Shown here piece by piece: positions 1 to 64,000 of a DNA stretch of 64,000 bases. The notes below the pieces were generated by a model, which worked only from the letters and a program-made list of their open reading frames with translations, had not been told where the DNA came from and made no database searches. Every line of letters begins with the position of its first letter. Position 1 is the stretch's first letter. This stretch comes from a virus. The position numbers were made by a program, and so were the translations under genes. Location of the stretch: IMG/VR virus record IMGVR_UViG_3300029822_000007, positions 31-64,030 of that record. One strand, written 5' to 3'.

Positions 1-105
1 CCAGTATGCTGTTATAATTTGGTCAGTGTACTGGTGGTTTTCAACATATGGCAACCCGCCATTTACATCATTAATATACATATCATTTTGTCCTACTGGT
101 ATTAA
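1..105. repeat. 105-bp exact direct repeat, copy 1 (identical to 58637-58741)
   Basis: Base-by-base comparison: ccagtatgct...ggtattaa is identical, then diverges (cctag vs gccct). Confidence 0.95.
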
Positions 106-702
106 CCTAGTGCAGAAATCATGTGTATCTTGTTTAATATTTAGGGCAACTAAATTAAGTTTATCATTAAAAAATGTACCCTTGCTGGTACCCATACTAT
201 TTAAAAAGTTTACAATCTTATTCTTAGCATCAAACTGTAAATCACACATATACGTTTCAGCTAATTTCTTTAATATATCCAATGCAGTTGAATTAGTCAT
301 TGCCAAACTTCTTAATTTAGTAACATTGGTATTAACTGTCCAACCACTACCAATCAGGGCATTATTTGCTATTTCTGTAATGAGTACATTTGTTCTCGTA
401 AACGCATTGTTATATAAACATTTTAAAGCTTCTGTATCAACCTCGCATTCAACTGCAATTAAATTATCAGAACCCGGGTTTACTTCTTTAATCACATATA
501 CTTGGTCAGCTGTTAAAATATGATTTTGTGTTTTTATAACATCAACCATAGTATCTTTTACTTCTTCTGCACCCACTACATTAAACATAGCATAGTTAAA
601 TTCTAGAGTATCAGTTCCAGTTATATCCCTTGTTCTTTTAATATCTTGGGCGGAAGGTAAAACCCCCAACTGAGCATAATTTGCATCTGCAATTATTAAC
701 AT
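1..702 (-). CDS. Tail-associated (Tal/endopeptidase-type) tail protein 1, N-terminal 234 aa, running off the window edge; absent from the ORF track
   Basis: My translation: ATG at 702 with GAGGAGG RBS, open to base 1 (MLIIADANYAQLGVLPS...DFCTRLIPVGQNDMY...TAYW). Paralogous to the N-terminus of 58877..61996 (LGVLP, DTLEFNY, TRLIPVG). Confidence 0.9.
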   Translation of the reverse strand, partial: MLIIADANYAQLGVLPSAQDIKRTRDITGTDTLEFNYAMFNVVGAEEVKDTMVDVIKTQNHILTADQVYVIKEVNPGSDNLIAVECEVDTEALKCLYNNAFTRTNVLITEIANNALIGSGWTVNTNVTKLRSLAMTNSTALDILKKLAETYMCDLQFDAKNKIVNFLNSMGTSKGTFFNDKLNLVALNIKQDTHDFCTRLIPVGQNDMYINDVNGGLPYVENHQYTDQIITAYW

Positions 703-731: not shown

Positions 732-1121
732 CTAAAAATCTTCAATCATGAATTTTAATGCGTCTAATTCGGCACCACTTAAAGTTGCATTGCCTAGGAT
801 TTCTAATTTAAATTGCATTAAATTTAGCTCAATCTCAATATTTAGTAATTTATCAATTTCTTCATTACAACCTTTTACATCATCTATTAATGGCAAACCA
901 GTATTTTTATCACATACTGGCTCACCTTTATCATCTTTTTTAGCAAACTTATTTCTAACCTTGCCAACTACCTTATTAAATGGCACTAATGCATCATTAA
1001 TTGCTTCCACATTTTTAGTTATTGCATATGAAGCCATCACTGGCAATTTCTCCTGCAATACCATTCCTAATATTTTAGTTCTATTTAATAAATATTTATT
1101 TGTTACTTTTACTTTTTTCAT
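732..1121 (-). CDS. Hypothetical tail-module protein, paralog of 62032..62436
   Basis: Lies between Dit and Tal; shares the C-terminal L..LKFMI.DF motif with its paralog. Confidence 0.7.
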   Translation of the reverse strand: MKKVKVTNKYLLNRTKILGMVLQEKLPVMASYAITKNVEAINDALVPFNKVVGKVRNKFAKKDDKGEPVCDKNTGLPLIDDVKGCNEEIDKLLNIEIELNLMQFKLEILGNATLSGAELDALKFMIEDF

Positions 1122-1141
1122 ATTATTAACCTCCTAAAAAA

Positions 1142-1396
1142 TTATCGTATTGTTACATCTAATGTTGCATTTATCTTTGCATTTACTTGTGCTACAAAAT
1201 CATCAAGAGCTGTTTTTACAAGTGCCGCATTGGCTTTTATTGTATCAGTTTGGTCATCTTGAAATCTTACACCTATATCAAAATTATTGTTTCGTATAGT
1301 TGCATTTACATTTCCAACTGTCACTTCTTTGGTAGCACCTTCTGCACCAGTAGTAATTGTTATTGGTCCATTTATTGATACACTTTCATTAAACAT
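1142..1396 (-). CDS. Hypothetical tail-module protein (84 aa), paralog of 62439..62693
   Basis: Same length and NNFDI motif as its paralog; GGAGG RBS. Confidence 0.7.
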   Translation of the reverse strand: MFNESVSINGPITITTGAEGATKEVTVGNVNATIRNNNFDIGVRFQDDQTDTIKANAALVKTALDDFVAQVNAKINATLDVTIR

Positions 1397-1414
1397 ATAA
1401 ATTCCTCCTAATTT

Positions 1415-2251
1415 TTATACATATCTAGGTTTATAACTTGTAGTTACTTCTAATGTTATATCATGTTCATCTGACATAACTGCATATGGGTTAACATTAA
1501 TTGCAATTGATTCACCACTGCGTTTCACCGGTAATACTGGAAAATCACCATTAAATTTGAGTGGTGTTACAACATTATTTCTATAGGTTTTAAATGTTTC
1601 AGTATCAACCTCGGCAGTATCACCATTATTTAAACCTATAAAAGTAAATTGATTTGTTACAAAAGAATCTAAAATATTAAATGTGCCGGGTTTATTAATA
1701 CCAAAATAAAATCCAGTATCTGTGGTTAGCCCTGATACTACTCTAGCATTAATATTTAAAGGTGAGGCAACATTACCCTGTGGCACCACTGTTATTGCTT
1801 GTGGTATTGTACTATTAAATACCAGGGTATCTGTTTGTGATACCACTGGTAAATAACCATAACCACTACTTAAAGTATACTTCACTAAATATAAATAATT
1901 ATTACCATCAATATTAGTATCCGGGTCACCATACCACGTAACTTCCGGGTCACCATTTAGTATTACATCATACAAAAATTGAGCATCATTAAATTGTATA
2001 GTTGCATTACTTAATTCTTTTGTAATATTACTGATGCTAATTAAAGCATCAGTTTTAGTTAAACCATGTACCAGCAATGATACTGTTAATGGTCTTTCTT
2101 TAAAAAGCAATGAAGTAATTAGAGGGGAAGGTGCCAGCCTTGACCAATATGAAGTATATTCAGCTTTATTGGTACCAAACGTATACTCTATTAAATCTGC
2201 ATTTAAATCTAATATACTTTTATCATTTATTGTCATACTTAAATCTGCCAT
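1415..2251 (-). CDS. Distal tail protein (Dit) 1
   Basis: Directly follows the TMP; siphovirus Dit-like size and ends (GDFP, YKPRY.). Confidence 0.75.
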   Translation of the reverse strand: MADLSMTINDKSILDLNADLIEYTFGTNKAEYTSYWSRLAPSPLITSLLFKERPLTVSLLVHGLTKTDALISISNITKELSNATIQFNDAQFLYDVILNGDPEVTWYGDPDTNIDGNNYLYLVKYTLSSGYGYLPVVSQTDTLVFNSTIPQAITVVPQGNVASPLNINARVVSGLTTDTGFYFGINKPGTFNILDSFVTNQFTFIGLNNGDTAEVDTETFKTYRNNVVTPLKFNGDFPVLPVKRSGESIAINVNPYAVMSDEHDITLEVTTSYKPRYV

Positions 2252-5200
2252 TATTTCCTCCTCCTTACATTACCATTAATCTTTCTTGATATTTCAGTAG
2301 ATAAATAATCAATTGATTCCCTATCTGTAAAGGCATATTTGCCATCAAGGTGTAATTCAACTTTGGCAGGGGTACCACCAGTAGTATTTAAACTATCCTG
2401 TGCTTTCTTCACTAAATTTAAATTATTATCACCTATTACATTATTTGCATTTTCAAAAACATTACTTATGCCACTAACACCAGCTTGTACGCCAGTTACT
2501 AATCCTTGTAGAGTATTTAAAACAGAAGTCATATTCGTAACTAAATTATTAGTTTGCATATTACTTAAAACTGTTTCTCCTCCTCTGAACCATTTTAACG
2601 CATTTCCCAGTACAACCTCAAGTCCTTTTTCACCTACTGCATGTGCTCCCGGGGTTGCATTATTTGTTCCGGTTGCATAACCAACATAATTTCCACTAAA
2701 TAAATGTGGTATATTATATGGGCTACCATATCTAGCTTTAATATAATTTAAGGCTGACATTATATTGTCAATGGGGTTCATTATATTACCATGTCCACTA
2801 GCCGCATAACTGTTAAAAGTAGAACCTAACATCTGCATTAATCCAGTGGCATGTTCTCCTCCCACTGCCTGACTATTAACAGATAATGGGTTACCACCTG
2901 ATTCTTTCTGTACTAAAGTTTGCAATGCTGGCAACCATGCTAGAGGCTTTCCTGATTGTGCTAATGCAGTTGTAAGCCATGCACCTACTTTGGCACTACC
3001 AACAATACCATGTGCAAAATTAATAGCACCACCGAATACTTTCTGTACTACTGCCTTAATATGTCCGGCACCACTCAGCAGAGCATTTTCAAGCCCTTTA
3101 ATTAAATATCCACCCATTGCATAGGTTTGTTTGGATGGTGAAGCAATACCAAATACTTTCTTCATACCAGTTAATAAATCCTTGGCTAATTTTTTAGCAA
3201 AAGCTACAACTTTACCTCCAATAGCCTTTAAACCATTCCATAAACCTTGCATGATATCCTTACCAATATTTACAAAGTTTTTAGGGAAATTTTTAAACCA
3301 GTTAACTAAACCATTCCACATCTTTTTAATTCCAGCAACTGCCCCAGTTAATAAACTGATTGCACCATTCTTAAAAAAGCTAAATATATTTCTACCCGTA
3401 TTAGCAAATACTGTAGGCATACTTCTAAAGAAATTAACAACCCCATTCCACAAAGCCTTTATACCAGCAACAGCATTAGTTAAAAGAGATATAGCCCCGT
3501 TTTTAAAGAAGTTAAATATACTCTTACCTATATTAGCCATTACACCCGGGAAAGCTTTAAAGAACGCTACTAACCCATTCCATATAGATTTAATTCCCCC
3601 TACTAAACCATTCCATACTGCAAGCCCAGCAACCTTCATTGCATTCCATATCGCAAGACTTACTGCCTTTATACCATTCCAAACACCAGCAAAAAAATTA
3701 CCAATTGCAGAAAATGCAGTTTTAATTCCAGTTACTGCCGCTGTCCAACCTGTAGATATCCCAGCAATTGCAACATGCACACCGGATTTTATACCATTCC
3801 AGATTCCACTAAAAAATCCAGTAATACCGCTCCACGCACTCATAATAGTATTTTTAGCACTTGTAAATATTCCAGTAACAACCGCCCATACCTTTTTAAA
3901 ATACGGTGCTAACTTATCCCAATTTTTATATATAATTAATGCCGCTATGGCAATCCCATATATAGCAATCATTACTGGATTAGCCCCTAAAGTTAAAACA
4001 TTAAATGCTTTACCAATTCCACTTATAGCAGTAGATACAGCTTTTACATCCTTAACTATAGTAAAGGCTTGATGTATACTTTGCATCGCTTTAACTGTTT
4101 TAGCAAATATTAATAATGCAGGTCCAATTGCCGCTACTACTCCACCTACTGCAACTATAAATGTTTGCGAAGCTGGTGACATCCTATTAAAAGCCTTTAC
4201 TAAATTACCTAAATGGTCAGTAATACTTCTTATAGCAGGTGTCATAGTTTTACCTATCGCAGTAGCCGCTGATTCCAATGAACCCTTTAAACCTTCTATC
4301 GAACCTTTCAAGTTATCTTGGTTAGTTTTTGCCGCCGCTTTAGCCGCACCATCTGAGTTTTTGAGTTCTTTAGTTAAGCCTTTTAATTTATCTTGACCAT
4401 CACCAATTAATACTTGCATACCACTTAAAGCATCAGAACCAAATATGGTTGATAACGTTAATGCTTTTTGTTGCTGAGTCATCCCTTTAGTAGAAGATTG
4501 TAATTTACCTATAATTTCATTTAGTGGCAACATTTTTCCATTAGTATCAAAAGCACTAAATCCAATCTGTTTCATAAGTCCAGCCGCTTGTTTAGATGGG
4601 TTAGACAAACTATTTAATGCACTTCTTAATGTAGTACCAGCCTGTGAACCCTGTATACCTTGGTTAGCCATTTCACCAATCGCCGCTGTAACTTCTTCCA
4701 TACTCATACCAGCAGTATGAGCAATTGGTGCCACATATTTCATAGCTTCACCGGTACTGGCAACACTTGCATTTGTTGCATTAGCGTTCTTTGCTAATAC
4801 ATCTGCAACATGTCCAGCCTGTGAAGCCGCTAAGCCAAATCCTCTCAATGTAGTAGCCGCTATATCTGAACTTGTTGCCAAATCCTCTCCTGAAGCCGCC
4901 GCTAAGTTCATCATACCCGGCATAGCACTAGTAATTTCATTTACTGAGAAACCAGCAGAGGCTAGGTTTTCCATACCTTCAGCCGCTTCACTAGCACTAA
5001 AAGATGTGGAAGCACCCAAATCAATAGCCTGTTTTCTTAATGTCTCCATTTGTGAACCTGATGCTCCTGCAACAGATTGAACTCTACTCATTTGTGCATC
5101 AAAGTCGCTTGACATCTTTATTGCCGCCGCTCCAACACCCACAATAGGTAGGGTTACATGTTTAGCTAAAGAAGCTCCAACAGTATTTGCCGCACTTCCT

Positions 5201-5340
5201 AATGCTGTTATACGTTTGCCAGTACTTTCACTTCCATTGGCAAATGTTTTTAAATCATTCTGAGCTGATTGTAGGGAGGCTTTGAATGGGCTTGTAGATA
5301 ATGCCAATGTTGCCATTATTGTTCCAGCACTTAATGCCAT
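2251..5340 (-). CDS. Tape measure protein with C-terminal lytic transglycosylase (SLT) domain
   Basis: 1029 aa, Ala/Gly-rich TP901-type core, W/F-periodic repeats; ESGGNP...ATGLMQ lysozyme-like motif. Confidence 0.95.
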   Translation of the reverse strand: MALSAGTIMATLALSTSPFKASLQSAQNDLKTFANGSESTGKRITALGSAANTVGASLAKHVTLPIVGVGAAAIKMSSDFDAQMSRVQSVAGASGSQMETLRKQAIDLGASTSFSASEAAEGMENLASAGFSVNEITSAMPGMMNLAAASGEDLATSSDIAATTLRGFGLAASQAGHVADVLAKNANATNASVASTGEAMKYVAPIAHTAGMSMEEVTAAIGEMANQGIQGSQAGTTLRSALNSLSNPSKQAAGLMKQIGFSAFDTNGKMLPLNEIIGKLQSSTKGMTQQQKALTLSTIFGSDALSGMQVLIGDGQDKLKGLTKELKNSDGAAKAAAKTNQDNLKGSIEGLKGSLESAATAIGKTMTPAIRSITDHLGNLVKAFNRMSPASQTFIVAVGGVVAAIGPALLIFAKTVKAMQSIHQAFTIVKDVKAVSTAISGIGKAFNVLTLGANPVMIAIYGIAIAALIIYKNWDKLAPYFKKVWAVVTGIFTSAKNTIMSAWSGITGFFSGIWNGIKSGVHVAIAGISTGWTAAVTGIKTAFSAIGNFFAGVWNGIKAVSLAIWNAMKVAGLAVWNGLVGGIKSIWNGLVAFFKAFPGVMANIGKSIFNFFKNGAISLLTNAVAGIKALWNGVVNFFRSMPTVFANTGRNIFSFFKNGAISLLTGAVAGIKKMWNGLVNWFKNFPKNFVNIGKDIMQGLWNGLKAIGGKVVAFAKKLAKDLLTGMKKVFGIASPSKQTYAMGGYLIKGLENALLSGAGHIKAVVQKVFGGAINFAHGIVGSAKVGAWLTTALAQSGKPLAWLPALQTLVQKESGGNPLSVNSQAVGGEHATGLMQMLGSTFNSYAASGHGNIMNPIDNIMSALNYIKARYGSPYNIPHLFSGNYVGYATGTNNATPGAHAVGEKGLEVVLGNALKWFRGGETVLSNMQTNNLVTNMTSVLNTLQGLVTGVQAGVSGISNVFENANNVIGDNNLNLVKKAQDSLNTTGGTPAKVELHLDGKYAFTDRESIDYLSTEISRKINGNVRRRK

Positions 5341-18545: not shown

Positions 18546-18957
18546 GTCAGGTCACAACAAAAATATTCAGATCGGCTCTCAAAAATAGCTATCTCCATCT
18601 GTAATATTGAATAGTTATGTATACAATTATAGTTATAATACAATCATAAATAAATAGTTTAATATGCTCTCTATACTACTAATACTAATCACTCTATATC
18701 TATTTCTTCTATCTCTCTTTATTATCAAGGGCTGTCGCATTCTCCGCCGCCGGATTTTTCGGGTGCCAAACCTACTAAATTAATGTCAATTTTATACTGA
18801 AAATTAAGCGTGCTTTCTGTGTACTTTCACGATTGTTGAATTCTTCATGTAAATGAATAATTTTATTAAAAAATATTTTAAAATCTATATAGGGAATATA
18901 TCTTAGGTTACATACATGTATATAGTTTTAACTATTAAATTATATTGTTTAGGATAA

Positions 18958-56231: not shown

Positions 56232-56262
56232 AATATCACCACCTTCGGACTACACTAATAAA

Positions 56263-56289
56263 AATAAAGGAGGCTTGCCCTCCTTTATT
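56263..56289. terminator. Hairpin between tail gene and holin
   Basis: AATAAAGGAGG-5-CCTCCTTTATT. Confidence 0.6.
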
Positions 56290-56347
56290 CATTATAATAT
56301 ATTATGCAAAAATGATAAATCCTTAATTTATTAACTGTTTATAAAAT

Positions 56348-58834
56348 TTAATAAAAATAAGCATAACCATTAAATGTTGCTCCACCACCACTGTAACAAT
56401 AAATTCTAGTGTGGTTTACATCGGTATCTTGTGTAGTAACAATTAAGTTACCAACTGTTCCATTCAATCTAACTATTGGGTGATATCCTAAATTGTGTGC
56501 AATTGTCACTGAACTTCCTGTTGGTATACTGACAGACTGTGTGTATACTGGCGTTTTACCTAAACCAAAATATTTATCAGCTGATATTGTTCCAGCACTT
56601 CCAATACTACCTCCGCCCATCATGATGTTATTTCCATTCATCCACAGATAATCATAGAAGTCTATATAACTACTATTAACTTCAACCTTACCATTTACTA
56701 AATTAACATTACTACTAACTACTAAAGAATCTGTACTTATTGAACCACTACCACTTCCGGAGCCTCCACTACCATAAACAATTAAATTACCATTAAGCAC
56801 AATATTATCATTAAATATACTATTTCCCCAAACAGTAAAATTACTACCTAATATTTGTGCCTTATATATATCAACATGTCCATTCAAAGTATCAGAGGGT
56901 TGTATAGCACCTATCGTTATAGTACCATCATCATCTGTATCTGTCCTAGATATTAAATGCTTACCAAACATTTGTATCAGTGGTAATGTATTTGCACCAT
57001 ATACCATATATCCTAAACTAATCATTTCACTTGAATTTTGGTATATGGATATTTGCTGGTCATGCAATGTTAAATAGTTTGTAGTATTATTAGTTTTTAA
57101 TGTAGTACCAATAATATCTACACCAGTAATTGTGCCACCACTTATTCTATCACCGCTTAATTCGCCAGTAGTAATTGAACTAGCATCTAAATTAACAACG
57201 CTTATCTGTGCCGCATCTAATGTTCCTGTAGTAATCTTACTAGCATCTATAGAAGCAATGATGCCGGAGTTTGCAGTAATAGTATTAGTAGCTATTTCAT
57301 TTGCAGTAATAGCATTGGCTACAACTTTATCGGCAGTAATAGTTCTATCCGTTAATGCCTCACCATTAATAGTTGTTTGACTTAGTGTCTGTGTAGCCCC
57401 GGGCAAATTATTTATTTCATAAACAATACTTTCATCGCTACCTCTAATAATTAATCTATCTACAGATAATGTTCCTGCTGTAATACTATTAGCACTTAAA
57501 TCAACAACCTTTGCATCTGTAATACTACTATCTGCTATTTGTGCAGTACCTATGGCAGAAGTAGCTATGATGCCACTATCAGCTGTAATTGTGCCAGCAA
57601 CCAATTGGTCTGCTACAATTGTATGGGCTTTTATAAGTGTACCATCTAATTCGCCTGTGGTTATATTAGTCGCATTTAGTTTAATTACATCAATTAAACT
57701 TGCATCAATTGTGCCACCGCTTATCCTATCAGCACTAAATGTCCCAGTAGTTATAGCACTTGCATCTAAATTAATTACTGCTATCTGTCCTGCATCAATA
57801 GTTCCACCTGAAATTCTATCAGCACTAAAAGTTCCTGTGGTAATACTACCTGCATCCAAATTAACCACAGAGACTTGTGAAGCATCAATAGTTCCTGTTG
57901 TTATATTACCTGCATCTAAGTTAGTTACATCAATCACACTAGCATCTATAGCTCCAGAAGTGATATTACTAGCATTAAGATTGGTAACACCAATAACATG
58001 TGCATCTATTGTACCGCCGCTAATATTACTGGCATTCAAATTAGTTACTGTAATAACCCCAGCGTCTATGGTACCAGCGGTTAATTTATCTGCACTTAAT
58101 GAATTAACCTTTTCATTAGTAACCTGCAAATCACCGATTTTGGCTGTAGTTATTGTACTATCTGCTACCTTTTCAGTAGTTACAGCTAAATCAGATATTT
58201 GTGCAGTTTGTACTTGCACATTTTTAACTTTAGTCCAATCAATACTATCAACTGCATCACCGCTAACACTACCACCATCAGTTGTTGTAATTGAATCTAC
58301 AGTTTCAGTTGTGTGTAATGATTTTTCAAATAAATCTTCCATTAATTGATACATACTATCAAACTGCACAGTATTTTGCTCCGGTTTATCCATATATTCT
58401 ACTGTTTGTATTATACGCACAGTTTGTCCAATTTCTTTCTTTGAATCCATTATAGTTACTGTATCACCAATATTGTAGCTTAATTCTGAAAAATCTTCAA
58501 AGTCTGGATTAAGTTCAGATATTCTAGCTAAATCTAAAACAGTTGCATCGAACGTGACCTGTGGCTGTGATAATATTGCTAATTTAGCTACCGCATCTTC
58601 TTTAAGTGCATTTGCATCAGTATATTGACCAGCCGACCAGTATGCTGTTATAATTTGGTCAGTGTACTGGTGGTTTTCAACATATGGCAACCCGCCATTT
58701 ACATCATTAATATACATATCATTTTGTCCTACTGGTATTAAGCCCTCTTTAGGTATCGGCATCAGACGTACTTTATTACCTTCTGGTGTTATGATTAACT
58801 GACCACTTTCTGCTATTTCTCTTAATTTTGACAT
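56348..58834 (-). CDS. Tail protein 1 C-terminal 797 aa (10-aa beta-helix-like repeats + tip domain) fused to 31 unrelated residues
   Basis: From LIPVGQ onward it continues the frame of 1..702; repeats (L/I)xAxxIxxGT; HNLGYHPIV tip. Confidence 0.85.
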   Translation of the reverse strand: MSKLREIAESGQLIITPEGNKVRLMPIPKEGLIPVGQNDMYINDVNGGLPYVENHQYTDQIITAYWSAGQYTDANALKEDAVAKLAILSQPQVTFDATVLDLARISELNPDFEDFSELSYNIGDTVTIMDSKKEIGQTVRIIQTVEYMDKPEQNTVQFDSMYQLMEDLFEKSLHTTETVDSITTTDGGSVSGDAVDSIDWTKVKNVQVQTAQISDLAVTTEKVADSTITTAKIGDLQVTNEKVNSLSADKLTAGTIDAGVITVTNLNASNISGGTIDAHVIGVTNLNASNITSGAIDASVIDVTNLDAGNITTGTIDASQVSVVNLDAGSITTGTFSADRISGGTIDAGQIAVINLDASAITTGTFSADRISGGTIDASLIDVIKLNATNITTGELDGTLIKAHTIVADQLVAGTITADSGIIATSAIGTAQIADSSITDAKVVDLSANSITAGTLSVDRLIIRGSDESIVYEINNLPGATQTLSQTTINGEALTDRTITADKVVANAITANEIATNTITANSGIIASIDASKITTGTLDAAQISVVNLDASSITTGELSGDRISGGTITGVDIIGTTLKTNNTTNYLTLHDQQISIYQNSSEMISLGYMVYGANTLPLIQMFGKHLISRTDTDDDGTITIGAIQPSDTLNGHVDIYKAQILGSNFTVWGNSIFNDNIVLNGNLIVYGSGGSGSGSGSISTDSLVVSSNVNLVNGKVEVNSSYIDFYDYLWMNGNNIMMGGGSIGSAGTISADKYFGLGKTPVYTQSVSIPTGSSVTIAHNLGYHPIVRLNGTVGNLIVTTQDTDVNHTRIYCYSGGGATFNGYAYFY
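58637..58741. repeat. 105-bp exact direct repeat, copy 2
   Basis: Identical to 1-105. Confidence 0.95.
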
Positions 58835-58862
58835 TAAACCATTTCCAATTATATTTATCTGA

Positions 58863-58894
58863 ACTGTTAGTTTATACTAATATAAACTAACAGT
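58863..58894. repeat. Perfect 14-bp inverted repeat with 4-nt loop containing the stop codon of tail protein 2
   Basis: ACTGTTAGTTTATA-ctaa-TATAAACTAACAGT. Confidence 0.9.
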
Positions 58895-61800
58895 ACCAGT
58901 CCAAAGATTACCTCCATTATTGTAATTTTTTACAGTAGTTTGATTAGTATTATTATGATATACAGTTAATATTATATTACCCGTAGACCCCGTAAATTGC
59001 ACTATAGGCATATAACCTAAATTATGCACTATAGTATGCGTATCACCATTATTTAAAGTACCTGACCATGTAGCTACAGGATATCTACCTAAACCTTGAT
59101 AATGTGCATTAGTTATAATTCCATTTTGTGCATTTAATGTTCCGCCATTCATATTTATATCATAACCATTCATAAAAAGGTTTCTATAAATATCAATATA
59201 CGAATTAGTTATTATATATGCTCCGTCGTAAATATTAATATCATTTTTAAATTGTACTGGGGATATAAAAGTAACATAACCACTACCAAACGCTGAAGCC
59301 TTAATAAGATCCAATTGTGCTACAATACCATTAGCAGAACTTAAAATTAAAACATCAGCATACAGTTCGGCTTCATTATACATCATACGTATAGTAGGTG
59401 GAGGTGTTGCAGCACTAGATTCAGTTCCACCACCGAATATAGAAATAGCCGGTAAGCCACGAAAAGCATTGTAGGCATAAAAATTATTACCAAAAAGAGT
59501 AACTCCACCTGCACCTACACCCGTATAAACCCTCCCCGCATTTATTACCGGTGCAAATATATAACCCGTATTCAAATTAATAGTTCCCTGAGCACCATTA
59601 CCAGCATCATAGTAACCTAACTTCATGACTTGTGTTGCATCCTGAAATATCTCCAAATATTGTTCATGAATCATTATATAATTATTTGTATTAGATGTTT
59701 TTAACAATGCCCCCGTAATTGTACCGCCAGAAATTATATCACCACTAATAGTACCACTCGTAATATTATTTGCATGTAAATTAATAACATCCACCACATC
59801 AGCGTCTATAGTACCTGTAGTTATTTTATTAGCATCTATAGAAGCAATAATACCATTAGAAGCCGTTATAGTGTTTGCTGCAATTTCATTTGCTGTAATA
59901 GTTTTAGCAAATATTTCATTAGCAGTTATAGTATGTGCTACAACTTTATCAGCTGTTACTGTTCTATCAGTTAAAGTTTCGCCATTAATAGTAGTATAAC
60001 CTACTACCTGTGTAGCTCCAGGTATATTATTTAATTCATAAACAATACTTTCATCGCTACCCCGAATAATCAATCTATCCACGCTTAATGTACCCGCAGT
60101 AATACTATTAGCACTTAAATCTACAACTTTAGCATCAGTGATACTACCATCAGCTATTTGTGCCGAACCTATGGCGGAATTCGCAATGATACCACTTTCT
60201 GCCGTAATAGTTCCACTAACCAACTGGTTCGCTACAATGGAATGTGCCTTTATATAGGTACCATCTAACTCACCTGCGGTGATGTTACCTGCATTCAGAT
60301 GGATAACATCAATCGTTGATGCATCAATTGTACCACCGCTTATACGGTCAGCACTAAACGTACCAGTGGTTATAGCGGATGCATCCAGTTTTACGACCGT
60401 TATTTTGGAAGCATCTAACGTTCCGCCAAATATTCTATCCGCAGTGAAAGTACCGGTAGATATCGATGAAGCATCTAAATTAATAACATCGATATATTGT
60501 GCGTCTAGTGTCCCCCCAGAAATTCTATTTGCAGATAAACTACCTGCAGTAATATTGCCTGCATTTAAATTAATAACACTAATAATGTTAGCATCTATAG
60601 TACCACCAGAAATGTTATCAGCATTAAGATTGAATACATGGATTATATCTGCATCAATAGAACCTGTAATAAGATTACTTGCATTTAGATTGATGACATT
60701 AATTATATTGGCATTGATGGTGCCCGCAGTTAGTTTATCGGCGCCTAATGAATCAACTTTTTCATTAGTAACTTGCAAATCGCCTATCTTTGCCGTGGTT
60801 ATTGTACTATCTGCTACTTTCTCAGTGGTAACTTGTAAATCACCTATTTGAGCAGTTTGTATTTGTACATTTTTTACTTTAGTCCAATCAATACTATCAA
60901 CTGAATCACCACTTACGTCACCGGTAGCTGTAGTTATATTTTGTAATTCTTGGTCTACTGCGGTGATAAGTTCAAAGTAATCTTCCATTAAATCATATTG
61001 GGATTCTAATTGAACTGTATTTTTATCTGGTTCATCCGGATACGAAACTGTTTGAACTATCCTAACTTGTCGTAATGTTTTTGATTGTCTATCACGTATA
61101 GTTATGGTATCCCCTAAATTATAAACATATTCACTATAATCAATATTATTAGTTAAACCTAATTCACTAAGTCTTGCTAAATCTAATACTGTACAATCGA
61201 TAGAAATTTTAGGTTGAGATAATATTGCTAACTTCTTAATAGCATCTTCTTTAAGGGCATTAGCATCTGTATATTGATTAGCTGACCAAAACTGTGTTAT
61301 ATTTTGATTTGTATATTGGTGGTTTTCTACATAATTTATACCGTTATTTATATCTGTAATATAAAGATTATTCGCCCCTACTGGAATTAAACGTGTCACT
61401 AAATCGTTAGTATCATATTTAACTTGAATATTTAATAAGTTAAATTTATCATCAAAGATAACACCAGCAAAATGGGGATTAAGCACCTCATTAAGATATA
61501 TAATTTTATTTTTAGCGTCAAAACGTAATTCAGTCATAAAGATTTCTGCAATTTTTTTAATTATATCTAGCGCAGTAGACTGATTCATAGCTAGACTTCT
61601 AAGTTTAACAGTACTAACATTGGTTTGAAATGTCCAACCCGTGCCAGTAAGTGCATTAGTTGCTAAAGTATTTAGTTGTGCGTTAGGTCTTGAAAAGGAT
61701 AAATTAATAGCATTAGTAAGTTCATCTAAATATACTACAGCTTTTACAGATAATATACCATCAGCCGGTGTAACTTCTTTAATAACATATAGTTGCGTAT

Positions 61801-61996
61801 CAGTTTCAATAAAATATTGGGGCTTAATTTGCGGCCCCATAACTGTTTCTACTTCTTCCCCACTAGCATCTACAACATAGTAGGGATAATTAAATTCAAG
61901 AGTGTCATTACCTTTAGTATCTTCAGTTATATGAATATCTGAAGAATATGGTAATACACCTAAGGGAGCTCTACTATCACTGCTTAAAGCTAACAT
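58877..61996 (-). CDS. Tail protein 2 (complete Tal-type endopeptidase domain + repeats + tip)
   Basis: 1039 aa, colinear paralog of reconstituted tail protein 1; TRLIPVG, HNLGYMPIV. Confidence 0.9.
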   Translation of the reverse strand: MLALSSDSRAPLGVLPYSSDIHITEDTKGNDTLEFNYPYYVVDASGEEVETVMGPQIKPQYFIETDTQLYVIKEVTPADGILSVKAVVYLDELTNAINLSFSRPNAQLNTLATNALTGTGWTFQTNVSTVKLRSLAMNQSTALDIIKKIAEIFMTELRFDAKNKIIYLNEVLNPHFAGVIFDDKFNLLNIQVKYDTNDLVTRLIPVGANNLYITDINNGINYVENHQYTNQNITQFWSANQYTDANALKEDAIKKLAILSQPKISIDCTVLDLARLSELGLTNNIDYSEYVYNLGDTITIRDRQSKTLRQVRIVQTVSYPDEPDKNTVQLESQYDLMEDYFELITAVDQELQNITTATGDVSGDSVDSIDWTKVKNVQIQTAQIGDLQVTTEKVADSTITTAKIGDLQVTNEKVDSLGADKLTAGTINANIINVINLNASNLITGSIDADIIHVFNLNADNISGGTIDANIISVINLNAGNITAGSLSANRISGGTLDAQYIDVINLDASSISTGTFTADRIFGGTLDASKITVVKLDASAITTGTFSADRISGGTIDASTIDVIHLNAGNITAGELDGTYIKAHSIVANQLVSGTITAESGIIANSAIGSAQIADGSITDAKVVDLSANSITAGTLSVDRLIIRGSDESIVYELNNIPGATQVVGYTTINGETLTDRTVTADKVVAHTITANEIFAKTITANEIAANTITASNGIIASIDANKITTGTIDADVVDVINLHANNITSGTISGDIISGGTITGALLKTSNTNNYIMIHEQYLEIFQDATQVMKLGYYDAGNGAQGTINLNTGYIFAPVINAGRVYTGVGAGGVTLFGNNFYAYNAFRGLPAISIFGGGTESSAATPPPTIRMMYNEAELYADVLILSSANGIVAQLDLIKASAFGSGYVTFISPVQFKNDINIYDGAYIITNSYIDIYRNLFMNGYDINMNGGTLNAQNGIITNAHYQGLGRYPVATWSGTLNNGDTHTIVHNLGYMPIVQFTGSTGNIILTVYHNNTNQTTVKNYNNGGNLWTGTVSLY

Positions 61997-62031
61997 TATT
62001 TAATCCCCTCCCACAGGATGATAAACTATGA

Positions 62032-62436
62032 TTAAAAATCAGTTATCATAAATTTTAGCGACATTAGTTCTTGTGGTGTAAAGTCTGTTTGACCTAAATC
62101 ATCAAAGTTGATAACATAGACCTCAAGTGTATTTTCAATATCTAACAATTCATTAAGGTCTTTTGTGAATGATTCAGGTTCAGCAATAATTACACCACCT
62201 TTTTTATCTTTTACTATTACATTGTCATCATCACGTTTACCATATTTGTCAATTAATTTATTTCTTTCCTTATCAAATGCCTTTAATTCTTTATTAAGAA
62301 TATCAATATTTTTAGTTAAGGTATAACTAGTAATAATAGGTAATGATTTAGTAAGGACCGATTTTAAACTAGTCCCAATAGTCACCATTTCTCTATTAGC
62401 TAATGTCTTTTGTAATTTTTTTAATTTAGCTCCCAT
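62032..62436 (-). CDS. Hypothetical tail-module protein, paralog of 732..1121
   Basis: Shared motifs and position. Confidence 0.7.
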   Translation of the reverse strand: MGAKLKKLQKTLANREMVTIGTSLKSVLTKSLPIITSYTLTKNIDILNKELKAFDKERNKLIDKYGKRDDDNVIVKDKKGGVIIAEPESFTKDLNELLDIENTLEVYVINFDDLGQTDFTPQELMSLKFMITDF

Positions 62437-62438
62437 GA

Positions 62439-62693
62439 TTAAGCCTCCTTATTAAATACTGGATAAACAGCATTTACTTTAGTTTGTACAGCACTATAAA
62501 ATTCTTGGAATTGCGCTTTCACTGCATCAATATTTTGAAGGGCGGTATCTTTGTCCTCAAAATATACATTGATATCGAAATTATTATCAGACAAGGTAAA
62601 TCTCATATTACCTATATTTTTCTGTACAATTTTATCATCTACTGTTTGATTTATAATAATCGCACCTGTTATATTTGTTGATTCTTTTAACAT
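62439..62693 (-). CDS. Hypothetical tail-module protein, paralog of 1142..1396
   Basis: 84 aa, NNFDI motif. Confidence 0.7.
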   Translation of the reverse strand: MLKESTNITGAIIINQTVDDKIVQKNIGNMRFTLSDNNFDINVYFEDKDTALQNIDAVKAQFQEFYSAVQTKVNAVYPVFNKEA

Positions 62694-62714
62694 TTTATAT
62701 CCTCCTTTAAAACA

Positions 62715-63527
62715 TTAAAACCACCTAGGTTTATATAATATATCTACATGCGTGTTAATTGCTACTTCATCTGCAAAGATAGCTGAAAACTTAATATTTA
62801 ATTGCATAACTTTCGGGGCAGCTATAATAGGAAAATCGCCCCTAAATCTTGATAAATCAGGAACTGTATTTGCAAGTATTTTATAAGTTTCCGCATTGAC
62901 TTCAATAAGATCACCATTACCGACATCCATTAATGCAAATTGGTCTGTAACATAGTCATTTAATATTTCAAATACTGGGTCTTTATTAAAAGCTAAATAT
63001 ATTAAATGGTCAGTAGTTGCACCATTTAATATTTTAAATCTTACAATTAAAGGCGTAAATTCATTACCTATTGTAGTAAAATTAATTGTAGCTGCTTGTG
63101 ACGTATCTGTAAATGTAATATCTTGACCTATAGTAATAACACTTCCATAACCTCGCCCAGCCGTTAACGTAGCTTCTATAATATATCTACAGGTATCATA
63201 ACCTGTATCAGTATCACCATACCAAGTTATTGTAGGTTCATTAGTCATATATACATTAAATGATTGTCCTATATCTGTAAAACCTAAGCTACAGTTTACA
63301 AAATTCTTTAATAGATTACTAACTTTTTGTAATGTTAAATCTTTAGTAGTATCTTCTACTAAACACGTAACTTTAATTTCTTTTTCTTGTGCTTGTTGTT
63401 GTGCTATCAAAGGGTTAGCAGCTTTCTTATACCATTGTATTGCGTAATTAACCTTAGAAGGTCCAACAGAATAATCTACTAAGGTAATATCTGTTCTTGC
63501 AACCCCATTTATAATTAAATCAGCCAT
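62715..63527 (-). CDS. Distal tail protein (Dit) 2
   Basis: Paralog of 1415..2251 (TWYGD, GDFP, YKPRWF). Confidence 0.75.
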   Translation of the reverse strand: MADLIINGVARTDITLVDYSVGPSKVNYAIQWYKKAANPLIAQQQAQEKEIKVTCLVEDTTKDLTLQKVSNLLKNFVNCSLGFTDIGQSFNVYMTNEPTITWYGDTDTGYDTCRYIIEATLTAGRGYGSVITIGQDITFTDTSQAATINFTTIGNEFTPLIVRFKILNGATTDHLIYLAFNKDPVFEILNDYVTDQFALMDVGNGDLIEVNAETYKILANTVPDLSRFRGDFPIIAAPKVMQLNIKFSAIFADEVAINTHVDILYKPRWF

Positions 63528-64000
63528 TAGACCCTCCCCTTTGTTCTTCCTGCAATTGTTCTACTAATTCTTGTCGATAAATAATCAATAGCTTCCTTAT
63601 TAGTAAATGCATAATTGCCATTCAAATTAATATTTACCGGCATTGCAGCATTATTAGTTGATGCCATTTGAGTTTGAGTAGCTACATCCAAACCTTTAGC
63701 ATTTTGCATCACATTTTGTAAATTAGCAATAGTAGAAAGTAAATTTAAACTATCTTTGTTATTTAATACTGTTTCGCCGCCCTGAAATAATTTTAAAGCT
63801 TTGCCACCAACAATTTCAAGACCCTTCTCTGCAACAGCATGCATACCGCTCATAGCACTTTTAACACCATTAGCATAACCAACGTAATTACCCCCAAATA
63901 AATTAGGGATATTATATGGTGAACCGTAACGTGCTTTTATATAATTAATAGAAGACATTAAATTATCAATAGGATTAGTAATATTACCATGACCCCTAGC
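63527..64000 (-). CDS. Tape measure protein 2, C-terminal part (frame open to the window edge)
   Basis: [32 protein letters not shown]... aligns with the end of TMP 2251..5340. Confidence 0.85.

What the first reader, a model, noticed from the sequence alone, without database searches (positions are those of the whole stretch)
58742..64000. A second, divergent tail-tip module (TMP end, Dit, two small genes, Tal) in the same orientation as the first
Seen: 63527-64000, 62715-63527, 62439-62693, 62032-62436 and 58877-61996 are one-to-one paralogs of the TMP C-terminus, Dit, the 84-aa and 129-aa genes and tail protein 1. The repeat cores are similar with mostly synonymous differences, while the Dit and tip domains differ strongly. 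Inference: the phage carries two alternative host-recognition tips, exchangeable by recombination in the conserved TMP end or Tal core, or this is a captured recombination intermediate between two phages. A chimeric assembly of two co-occurring phages is an equally live explanation.
Basis: partly seen in the sequence, partly recalled or inferred. Interest (0 to 1): 0.8.

Follow-up and report, generated by a model that had tools for sequence, protein, structure and literature searches.

The report
Two phages merged by the assembler
The "second tail-tip module" is real DNA, but it comes from a different, roughly 16-fold rarer Clostridium phage in the same sample. The assembler attached it to a complete 58.6-kb phiCTP1-like genome through a stretch both phages share, so no single phage here carries two tips.

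Summary
Window 58877-64000 encodes one-to-one paralogs of TMP end, Dit, the 84-aa and 129-aa genes and Tal, at 57/35/37/37/58 % amino-acid identity.

The headline inference, one phage with two tips, does not hold.

- The contig is only 64,070 nt. Its first 135 nt repeat contig 58637-58771 (window 58607-58741). Closing that circle gives a 58,636-bp genome collinear with all of phiCTP1 and an intact 996-aa Tal1.
- Four independent contigs carry Dit1-84-129-Tal1-holin without module 2.
- Module 2 belongs to another phage. It continues upstream into its own 1117-aa TMP, chaperones and tube genes, about 69 % nt identical to phage 1.
- In one SPAdes assembly module 2 has k-mer coverage 5.1, against 74-91 for phage 1.
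- It contains GATC, GCGC and GGCC sites, which phage 1 has purged.
- Its near-identical relative sits on a 49-kb contig with a different genome layout.

The 58741/58742 joint is nevertheless real DNA. Three assemblies (k 55, 119, 127) cross it, and a GC/AA dinucleotide 127 nt away is linked to it. So a phage-2 variant carries, after its own Tal, a 5'-truncated copy of phage 1's Tal (ORF828). That shared stretch is where the assembler switched phages.

Verdict: assembly chimera at a natural recombination scar. Interest is low.

The parts
1..702 (-). Tal1 N-terminal 234 codons of phage 1. The gene runs off the contig start, which lies 30 nt left of window base 1.
   Evidence: Joined to 58636..56348 it gives a stop-free 996-aa protein, 86 % identical to phiCTP1 gp26. 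L004-L007 carry it in one piece.
1..105 (-). Copy A of the overlap, phage-1 haplotype. With the 30 contig bases to its left it is 135 nt. The contig has TT (coding strand AA) 8-9 nt from its start.
732..5340 (-). Module 1 of phage 1: 129-aa gene (732-1121), 84-aa gene (1142-1396), Dit1 (1415-2251), TMP1 of 1029 aa (2251-5340).
   Evidence: About 91 % nt identical to phiCTP1 gp22-gp25.
56348..58741 (-). Tal1 codons 200-996. In the linear contig this is the body of ORF828. It is shared by phage 1 and phage 2b for at least 254 nt (58488-58741).
   Evidence: About 80 % nt identical to phiCTP1 gp26. L004-L007 match it except at 58614/58615. The PF06605 match begins at profile position 115 of 250.
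58614..58615 (-). Haplotype marker. The window and L002 (linked to Tal2) have GC on the coding strand. All four contigs with intact Tal1, and the contig start, have AA.
58637..58741 (-). Copy B of the overlap, phage-2b haplotype. This is where the assembler's path re-enters sequence it had already used.
58742..58758 (-). 17 nt of filler at the joint (coding strand CGATACCTAAAGAGGGC). It matches neither native phage 2 nor Tal1.
58759..58876 (-). Phage-2 sequence downstream of Tal2. It holds the ATG at 58834 (weak RBS), which opens ORF828 here and a 31-aa ORF in native phage 2.
   Evidence: Identical or near-identical in L002, L003, L011, L017 and L018. RBS context.
58863..58894 (-). Perfect 14-nt inverted repeat with a 4-nt loop, spanning the Tal2 stop codon. 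No T-tract follows.
   Evidence: The terminator scan did not call it.
58877..61996 (-). Tal2, 1039 aa, of phage 2b.
   Evidence: The exact protein occurs on L002 and L003. Relatives at 90 % identity or more occur on L011 and L017.
62032..63527 (-). 134-aa gene (62032-62436, phrog_1401), 84-aa gene (62439-62693), Dit2 of 270 aa (62715-63527).
63527..64000 (-). C-terminal 157 codons of TMP2. The full gene is 1117 aa on L011.
   Evidence: PF10145 plus SLT.

Best explanation
The 64,070-nt contig is an assembly chimera of two phages that co-occur in one fermentation metagenome.

Phage 1 is a complete, circularly closing 58,636-bp phiCTP1-like Clostridium siphovirus with one tail-tip module (TMP1-Dit1-84-129-Tal1).

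Phage 2b is a rarer, distantly related phage, about 69 % nt identical in its tail genes. It has its own module (TMP2-Dit2-84-134-Tal2). Directly after Tal2, past 118 nt of native sequence and 17 nt of filler, it carries a copy of phage 1's Tal gene from codon 200 onward.

Both phages therefore contain that Tal1 segment almost base for base. The assembler went once round phage 1, re-entered the segment on the phage-2b haplotype (GC at 58614/15) and left through the phage-2b branch. That appended 5.3 kb of phage 2b's tail genes.

Shown:
- circle closure
- module 2 continues into a separate phage's tail region
- the coverage gap
- the different restriction-site signature
- reads in several assemblies span the joint

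Inferred:
- The joint arose by illegitimate recombination that moved phage-1 DNA into a phage-2 lineage.
- Phage 2b follows phage-1 sequence beyond 58488.
- ORF828 is a truncated remnant. It starts in the middle of the Tal hub domain and so probably cannot build a hub.
For: (1) The contig is all there is: 30 nt lie before and 40 nt after the window.

(2) Contig 1-135 matches 58637-58771 at 133 of 135 bases. Closing the circle restores a 996-aa Tal1 that is 86 % identical to phiCTP1 gp26.

(3) The circle 1-58636 is collinear with the whole 59,199-bp phiCTP1 genome except for gp27. The remaining 5.3 kb is therefore in excess of a unit genome.

(4) Four contigs from three assemblies and a Logan run carry Dit1-84-129-Tal1(996 aa)-holin with no module 2.

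(5) Module 2 extends upstream, on L011 and L019, into a full 1117-aa TMP2, two chaperone-like genes, a gp19-like gene and a tube gene. All are ~69 % nt identical to phage 1, and none merges with it.

(6) Within one SPAdes assembly the phage-2b contig has k-mer coverage 5.13. The two phage-1 contigs have 90.9 and 73.6 (contig names).

(7) A relative 99.2 % identical (L017, a 49-kb contig, and L018) has one tip module. After it come a GH25 lysin and a C1 peptidase, then NrdD/NrdG/PolA on the opposite strand. That is a different genome plan from the all-one-strand phage 1.

(8) Restriction sites. The 58.6-kb circle has 0 GCGC, 0 CGCG, 0 GGCC and 1 GATC, where about 30, 30, 30 and 155 are expected. 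The 5.3 kb of module 2 holds 6 such sites (binomial P 2e-6), and the 9.7 kb of phage 2 holds 22.

(9) Family relatives have one module per genome.

(10) The joint is real. L011 (k55), L003 (k119) and L002 (k127) all cross it at 100 % identity. Each ends where de Bruijn logic predicts a merge with phage 1: k-1 past the joint, or 126 nt past the GC variant. AA is linked to the Tal1 N-terminus and GC to Tal2.
Against: - No raw reads could be laid. Coverage therefore rests on SPAdes contig names from an ENA assembly. I infer, from 100 % or near-100 % identity and the same study, that it derives from the same or a sister sample.
- The assemblies may not all be independent samples. ERZ272830xx could be re-assemblies of the 2014 runs.
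- How far phage 2b shares phage-1 sequence is unseen, so part of the 'phage 1' backbone in the contig could equally be phage 2b's.
- The separation of the modules across runs is suggestive only. X5 holds module 1 but is not listed for module 2, and X2 holds module 2 but is not listed for module 1. The lists are capped at four runs per study.
Confidence: 0.9

Rival explanations
1. One phage genome really carries both tail-tip modules, either as alternative host-recognition tips or as a tandem duplication of the tail region.
For: Both modules lie on one deposited contig in the same orientation with intact reading frames. The 58741/58742 joint is supported by several assemblies.
Against: - The circle without module 2 is already a full phiCTP1-type genome.
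- Tal1 closes without module 2 in four contigs.
- Module 2 drags in a whole second set of tube, chaperone and TMP genes. That would need a genome of 69 kb or more in a 59-kb family.
- Coverage is 5, against 74-91 for phage 1.
- GCGC, GGCC and GATC sites occur only in module 2.
- Relatives have one module each.
Confidence: 0.02
2. The joint at 58741/58742 is itself an artefact from chimeric reads or assembler error. On this view the phage 2 in the sample is the native type (L017) and has no Tal1-like segment.
For: - The joint occurs only in samples that also hold abundant phage 1.
- No contig shows the whole of ORF828 apart from the window's own.
- Scans of the JGI and IMG/VR collections found no other copy of the joint.
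Against: - Three assemblers or k values (55, 119, 127) give the identical joint.
- The joint contains 17 nt found in neither parent.
- A GC variant 127 nt inside the Tal1-like part is linked to it, while every Tal1 contig has AA.
- The native phage-2 downstream genes have no cluster members outside the L017/L018 contigs, although phage 2b assembled to 9.8 kb at 5x.
Confidence: 0.06
3. Phage 2b is a large-scale hybrid, with phage-2 head and tail genes joined at Tal codon 200 to phage-1 lysis and replication genes. The contig's path from module 2 through ORF828 and the backbone would then be a true phage-2b sequence, and the chimeric part would be module 1.
For: - Phage 2b is identical to phage 1 from the joint to at least 58488, apart from GC.
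- The native phage-2 lysis genes are missing from the sample's assemblies.
- The contig carries the phage-2b haplotype at 58614/15.
Against: - No second crossover has been seen.
- Coverage of the backbone contig (73.6) is not higher than that of the phage-1 structural contig (90.9), as it would be if both phages contributed. A 5x addition is, however, within noise.
- The contig would still merge two phages, because it holds two sets of tail genes.
Confidence: 0.35

Closest known systems
Clostridium phage phiCTP1 (NC_014457, 59,199 bp) and vB_CtyS-FA88 (OR113388), virulent siphoviruses of Clostridium tyrobutyricum
   Same: Window 1-58636 is collinear with the whole phiCTP1 genome at 80-94 % nt identity. 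The order TMP(1029 aa)-278-84-129-Tal(996 aa)-holin-endolysin is the same. Module 2's best isolate matches are also these phages: Dit 35 %, Tal 52 %.
   Different: Phage 1 lacks the 665-aa gp27 between Tal and holin. Module 2 is far more divergent, and its native genome (L017) has replication genes on the opposite strand.
Chimeric contigs longer than one genome, built from mixtures of related phages. This is a known metagenome-assembly artefact; quality tools flag such contigs as holding more than one genome copy (from my own knowledge, not tested here).
   Same: A circular genome is traversed once, and the path then leaves through a minority variant's branch at a shared sequence. The signs are a start/internal repeat (135 nt, 133 of 135 identical), excess length over the unit genome and a coverage step.
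   Different: The shared sequence is not ordinary strain-level homology. It is a non-homologous joint that puts a 5'-truncated Tal1 after an intact Tal2 in the minority phage.
Dit-Tal adsorption hub of Gram-positive siphoviruses (SPP1 gp19.1/gp21, TP901-1, p2, 80alpha)
   Same: Gene order TMP-Dit-...-Tal. Dit fold for Dit2. PF06605 N-terminal hub domain in Tal1 and Tal2. The Tal C-terminus is variable, as expected for a receptor-binding end.
   Different: Two small genes (84 aa; 129/134 aa, phrog_1401, function unknown) sit between Dit and Tal. Neither Dit matches a Pfam model.

Membership tests
Distal tail protein (Dit) | Dit fold: an N-terminal beta-sandwich ring domain plus a galectin-like domain | tested here: met
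   The Dit2 model (pLDDT 77, pTM 0.54) has SPP1 Dit 2x8k as its top PDB hit at E 7e-10. The Dits of TP901-1 (4v96), 80alpha (6v8i) and p2 (2wzp) follow. TM-scores are modest, 0.36-0.52.
Distal tail protein (Dit) | Sequence match to a Dit family, and a gene placed directly after the TMP gene | tested here: met
   Dit1 hits phrog_33 (Dit) at E 1.4e-11. Dit2 has no direct hit but is 35 % identical to Dit1 over 268 aa. Both start at the TMP stop codon.
Tail-associated lysin / tail tip protein (Tal) | N-terminal Prophage_tail (PF06605) hub domain, complete | tested here: met
   Tal2 residues 115-338 cover profile positions 27-244 of 250 at E 2e-36. Tal1 is 86 % identical to phiCTP1 gp26.
Tail-associated lysin / tail tip protein (Tal), applied to ORF828 | N-terminal Prophage_tail hub domain, complete | tested here: not met
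   The PF06605 match in ORF828 starts at profile position 115 of 250. The first 31 residues have no homolog. ORF828 is a 5'-truncated Tal.
Tape measure protein | PhageMin_Tail (PF10145) domain, great length, position upstream of Dit | tested here: met
   Full TMP2 on L011 is 1117 aa, with PF10145 at E 2e-57 and SLT at E 2e-11. The window holds only its last 157 codons.
Single genome with two tail-tip modules | Both modules lie on one molecule at equal abundance | tested here: not met
   k-mer coverage is 5.1 for module 2 and 74-91 for phage 1 within one assembly. Tal1 closes on itself in four contigs. Module 2 continues into another phage's tail genes.
Assembly chimera that overshoots a circular genome | A start/internal repeat closes a complete unit genome, and the excess sequence belongs to a different population | tested here: met
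   135-nt repeat, 58,636-bp unit collinear with phiCTP1, haplotype switch AA/GC, different restriction-site signature and coverage.

The most novel reading that the evidence does not exclude
Phage 2b is a stable natural recombinant. By illegitimate recombination it acquired the receptor-binding 797 residues of a co-resident phage's Tal and keeps them as a separate gene (ORF828) directly behind its own intact Tal2. If ORF828 is expressed and built into the virion, phage 2b would carry two different host-recognition ends. That would be a host-range shift caught between two phages sharing a fermenter community. It would also explain why phage 2b is seen only where phage 1, and so its host, is abundant.
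Probability: 0.12. Interest if true: 0.55.

Novelty: not a real feature. Interest (0 to 1): 0.2.

Why it matters
The main value is as a caution. This contig sits in public collections as one 64-kb viral genome. Anyone reading it as it stands would infer a phage with duplicated, divergent adsorption modules. It should be split into a 58,636-bp circular phiCTP1-like genome and a 5.3-kb fragment of another phage.

A smaller point concerns biology. The switch point is a real, non-homologous joint. It places a truncated copy of one phage's Tal, including its variable receptor-binding end, behind the intact Tal of a distantly related phage. This is a concrete natural example of tail-tip DNA moving between co-occurring Clostridium phages, and it can be tested by PCR or long reads on the same samples.

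Tried and rejected
- An exact look-up of ORF828 found no encoding contig. The cluster look-up showed it on record only from the window's own JGI/IMG contig. Alternative-start versions (804 and 789 aa) are not on record.
- The 31/40-residue N-terminus of ORF828 has no homolog. Nothing turned up among 455-1449-aa proteins or in phage genomes by tblastn (only E=6 noise). It does not resemble phiCTP1 gp27, L012's 114-aa or 666-aa proteins, or the Tal residues it replaces. The null is weak, because that search scores cluster representatives only.
- IMG/VR scans with Dit2 and Tal2 found nothing.
- Exact-pattern scans for the joint and for the Tal2 3' end found nothing in JGI metagenome contigs or IMG/VR. 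The window's own record may be hidden there.
There is none over the full gene, and the left ends of L002, L003, L011, L015, L016 and L019 all stay ~69 % identical.
- I looked for an internal repeat to explain the contig breaks at 56476-56530 and found none.
- A literature search for PRJNA260163 returned nothing. The phiCTP1 papers found deal with the endolysin, not the tail.
- Run lists. Shares under 0.25 (X3, X4 and others) were never laid, so I draw nothing from them.
Full report
**What is in the sequence.**
All long ORFs in the window lie on the minus strand. Read in coding direction from the right end, the window holds:
- the last 157 codons of a tape measure gene (63527-64000)
- a 270-aa gene (62715-63527)
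- an 84-aa gene (62439-62693)
- a 134-aa gene (62032-62436)
- a 1039-aa gene (58877-61996)

At the left end of the window the same series recurs: TMP1 (2251-5340), a 278-aa gene, an 84-aa gene, a 129-aa gene, and the first 234 codons of a Tal gene (702-1).

The pairs are 57, 35, 37, 37 and 58 % identical in protein. Along Tal, the repeat core (residues 535-675) is 78-92 % identical with mostly synonymous codon differences. The last ~220 residues are 16-46 % identical.

Tal2 has a full PF06605 hub domain. Dit1 matches the PHROG Dit family. A model of Dit2 finds SPP1 Dit and other siphovirus Dits as its best solved structures.

**The contig closes on itself before module 2 begins.**
The window is nearly the whole record. 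The contig has 64,070 nt, with 30 nt before and 40 nt after the window.

Window 1-105 equals 58637-58741 exactly. With the 30 leading bases, the overlap is 135 nt with two mismatches, TT against GC, at contig bases 8-9.

Joining 702..1 to 58636..56348 gives a stop-free 996-aa Tal1 that is 86 % identical to phiCTP1 gp26 over its full length.

The resulting 58,636-bp circle is collinear with the complete 59,199-bp genome of Clostridium phage phiCTP1 at 80-94 % nt identity. The only large difference is the absence of the 665-aa gp27 between Tal and holin. The 5.3 kb to the right of 58741 is therefore surplus to a full genome.

**Independent assemblies separate the two modules.**
Four contigs carry Dit1-84-129-Tal1(996 aa), three of them continuing into the holin, and none contains module 2:
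- L004: SPAdes NODE_1736, cov 90.9
- L005: MEGAHIT k127, run SRR1562008
- L006: MEGAHIT k119
- L007: Logan, SRR14861496

Module 2 sits on separate short contigs (L002, L003, L011) that are 100 % or near-100 % identical to the window.

L011 and L019 extend it upstream. They run through a complete 1117-aa TMP2, two chaperone-like genes and a gp19-like gene into a tube gene. All of this is ~69 % nt identical to phage 1, and none of it merges with phage 1. Module 2 is thus the end of another phage's whole tail region, not an extra cassette.

**Coverage.**
Within one SPAdes assembly (ERZ724040) the phage-2 contig has k-mer coverage 5.13. The two phage-1 contigs, which together span about 58.4 kb, have 90.9 and 73.6 (contig names).

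**Other signs of a different phage.**
- *Genome layout.* L017 (a 49-kb contig) and L018 are 99.2 % identical to module 2 down to window 58759. They show the native context. There is one tip module, followed by a GH25 lysin, a C1 peptidase and two small genes. NrdD, NrdG, glutaredoxin and PolA then lie on the opposite strand. Phage 1 has every gene on one strand.
- *Restriction sites.* The 58.6-kb circle has no GCGC, CGCG or GGCC and one GATC, where about 30, 30, 30 and 155 are expected from composition. The 5.3 kb of module 2 holds two GATC, three GCGC and one GGCC (binomial P 2e-6). The 9.7 kb of phage-2 tail region holds 22 such sites.
- *Family relatives.* Complete or long contigs of relatives (L012 at 58.9 kb, and L014) have one module each.
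- *Distribution across runs.* One soil run holds 84 % of module-1 words and is not listed for module 2. One fermentation run holds 76 % of module-2 words and is not listed for module 1. The lists are capped per study, so this is only suggestive.

**The joint is real, and it explains the chimera.**
The joint at 58741/58742 is not an assembler invention.
- L011 (k55), L003 (k119) and L002 (k127) all cross it at 100 % identity.
- Each stops where a de Bruijn graph would merge with phage 1. L011 stops 54 nt and L003 118 nt past the joint. L002 stops at 58488, which is 126 nt past the GC dinucleotide at 58614/15.
- All four Tal1 contigs have AA at that site. L002, which is linked to Tal2, has GC, as does the window's internal copy. 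The contig start has the AA form.

So two haplotypes exist: AA joined to the Tal1 N-terminus, and GC joined to the end of Tal2.

Comparison with native phage 2 shows that the window follows phage-2 sequence to 58759. It then has 17 nt found in neither parent (58758-58742), and then Tal1 from codon 200.

A variant of phage 2, here called 2b, therefore carries a 5'-truncated copy of phage 1's Tal behind its own Tal2. In the linear contig this reads as ORF828: 31 new residues behind a weak RBS, then Tal1 residues 200-996. Its PF06605 match starts at profile position 115 of 250, so half the hub domain is missing.

The assembler went round phage 1, entered this shared stretch on the 2b haplotype and left into phage 2b.

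**What remains open.**
- *Extent of sharing.* Every graph merges with phage 1 after 58488, so how far phage 2b follows phage-1 sequence is unseen. The native phage-2 genes downstream of Tal2 have no cluster members at 90 % identity or more outside the L017/L018 contigs, even though phage 2b assembled to 9.8 kb. Phage 2b therefore probably lacks them. It may be a larger hybrid that uses phage-1 lysis and perhaps replication genes. I put that at about one in three.
- *ORF828.* Whether it is expressed is unknown. Its truncated hub domain argues for a remnant.
- *Native phage 2.* It also shows a scar at the same breakpoint: a 31-aa ORF followed, in another frame, by a 169-codon cell-wall-binding-like frame with no start codon. 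This spot seems prone to rearrangement.
- *Independence of assemblies.* I cannot show that the ERZ272830xx assemblies come from a different study than the 2014 runs. I therefore count them as different assemblies and probably different runs, since L006 differs from L005 at seven further sites. I do not count them as independent studies.

**Verdict.**
- The paralogy is real.
- Co-residence of the two modules in one genome is an assembly artefact (confidence 0.9).
- Its second alternative survives only in the narrower sense that the switch point is a natural recombination joint inside the minority phage.
- Overall the finding rates as low interest. The joint itself is a small but real example of tail-tip DNA moving between phages.

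Noticed in passing
window 56232-56347 (between Tal1 stop and holin start): Phage 1 lacks the 665-aa gene that phiCTP1 (gp27) and the relative L012 (666 aa, weak Peptidase_S11 hit) carry between Tal and holin. phiCTP1 20179 joins 22206 here.
   Followed up: partly
window 1-58636: Near-total avoidance of four short palindromes in phage 1: 0 GCGC, 0 CGCG, 0 GGCC and 1 GATC (at 18570), where ~30/30/30/155 are expected. TCGA (20 of 155) and ACGT (77 of 155) are also depleted, and TGCA is enriched (430 of 155).
   Followed up: partly
L017:11172-11743 (native phage 2, downstream of Tal2): A 31-aa ORF shares its first 25 codons with ORF828. It is followed, in the +1 frame, by a 169-codon cell-wall-binding-repeat-like frame with no start codon, just upstream of the GH25 lysin. 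This is a second rearrangement scar at the same breakpoint (window 58759).
   Followed up: partly
window 56476-56530: SPAdes contigs NODE_1736 and NODE_842 overlap by exactly 55 nt here, and a Logan contig of SRR1562008 also starts at 56530. No repeat of this stretch exists in the window or in the fetched loci. This suggests a third Tal variant in the sample that shares the last ~180 nt of Tal1.
   Followed up: partly
L014:14894-17795: In one family relative the Tal gene is split into a 292-aa N-terminal hub gene and a separate gene of at least 644 aa for the C-terminal part. Tal C-terminal parts can therefore exist as separate genes in this phage group.
   Followed up: no
window 57075-58103 and 59754-60752: Both Tal genes contain runs of 30-nt-periodic repeats (families D1 and D6; Pfam Gp58-like). 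These explain the cross-matches between Tal1 and Tal2 at 73-82 % nt identity.
   Followed up: no
window 23290-49295 (families D3/D8): Six to seven copies of a conserved ~42-78-nt motif (plus strand TATTATATCA...AAAAATTAAAGT) sit in front of minus-strand early and replication genes. They are probably phage promoters. Another finding of this scan had already noted them.
   Followed up: no
window 732-1121 and 62032-62436: The 129/134-aa gene between Dit and Tal belongs to phrog_1401 (function unknown; E 4e-26 and 2e-19). It is conserved in every relative examined, always directly upstream of Tal.
   Followed up: no
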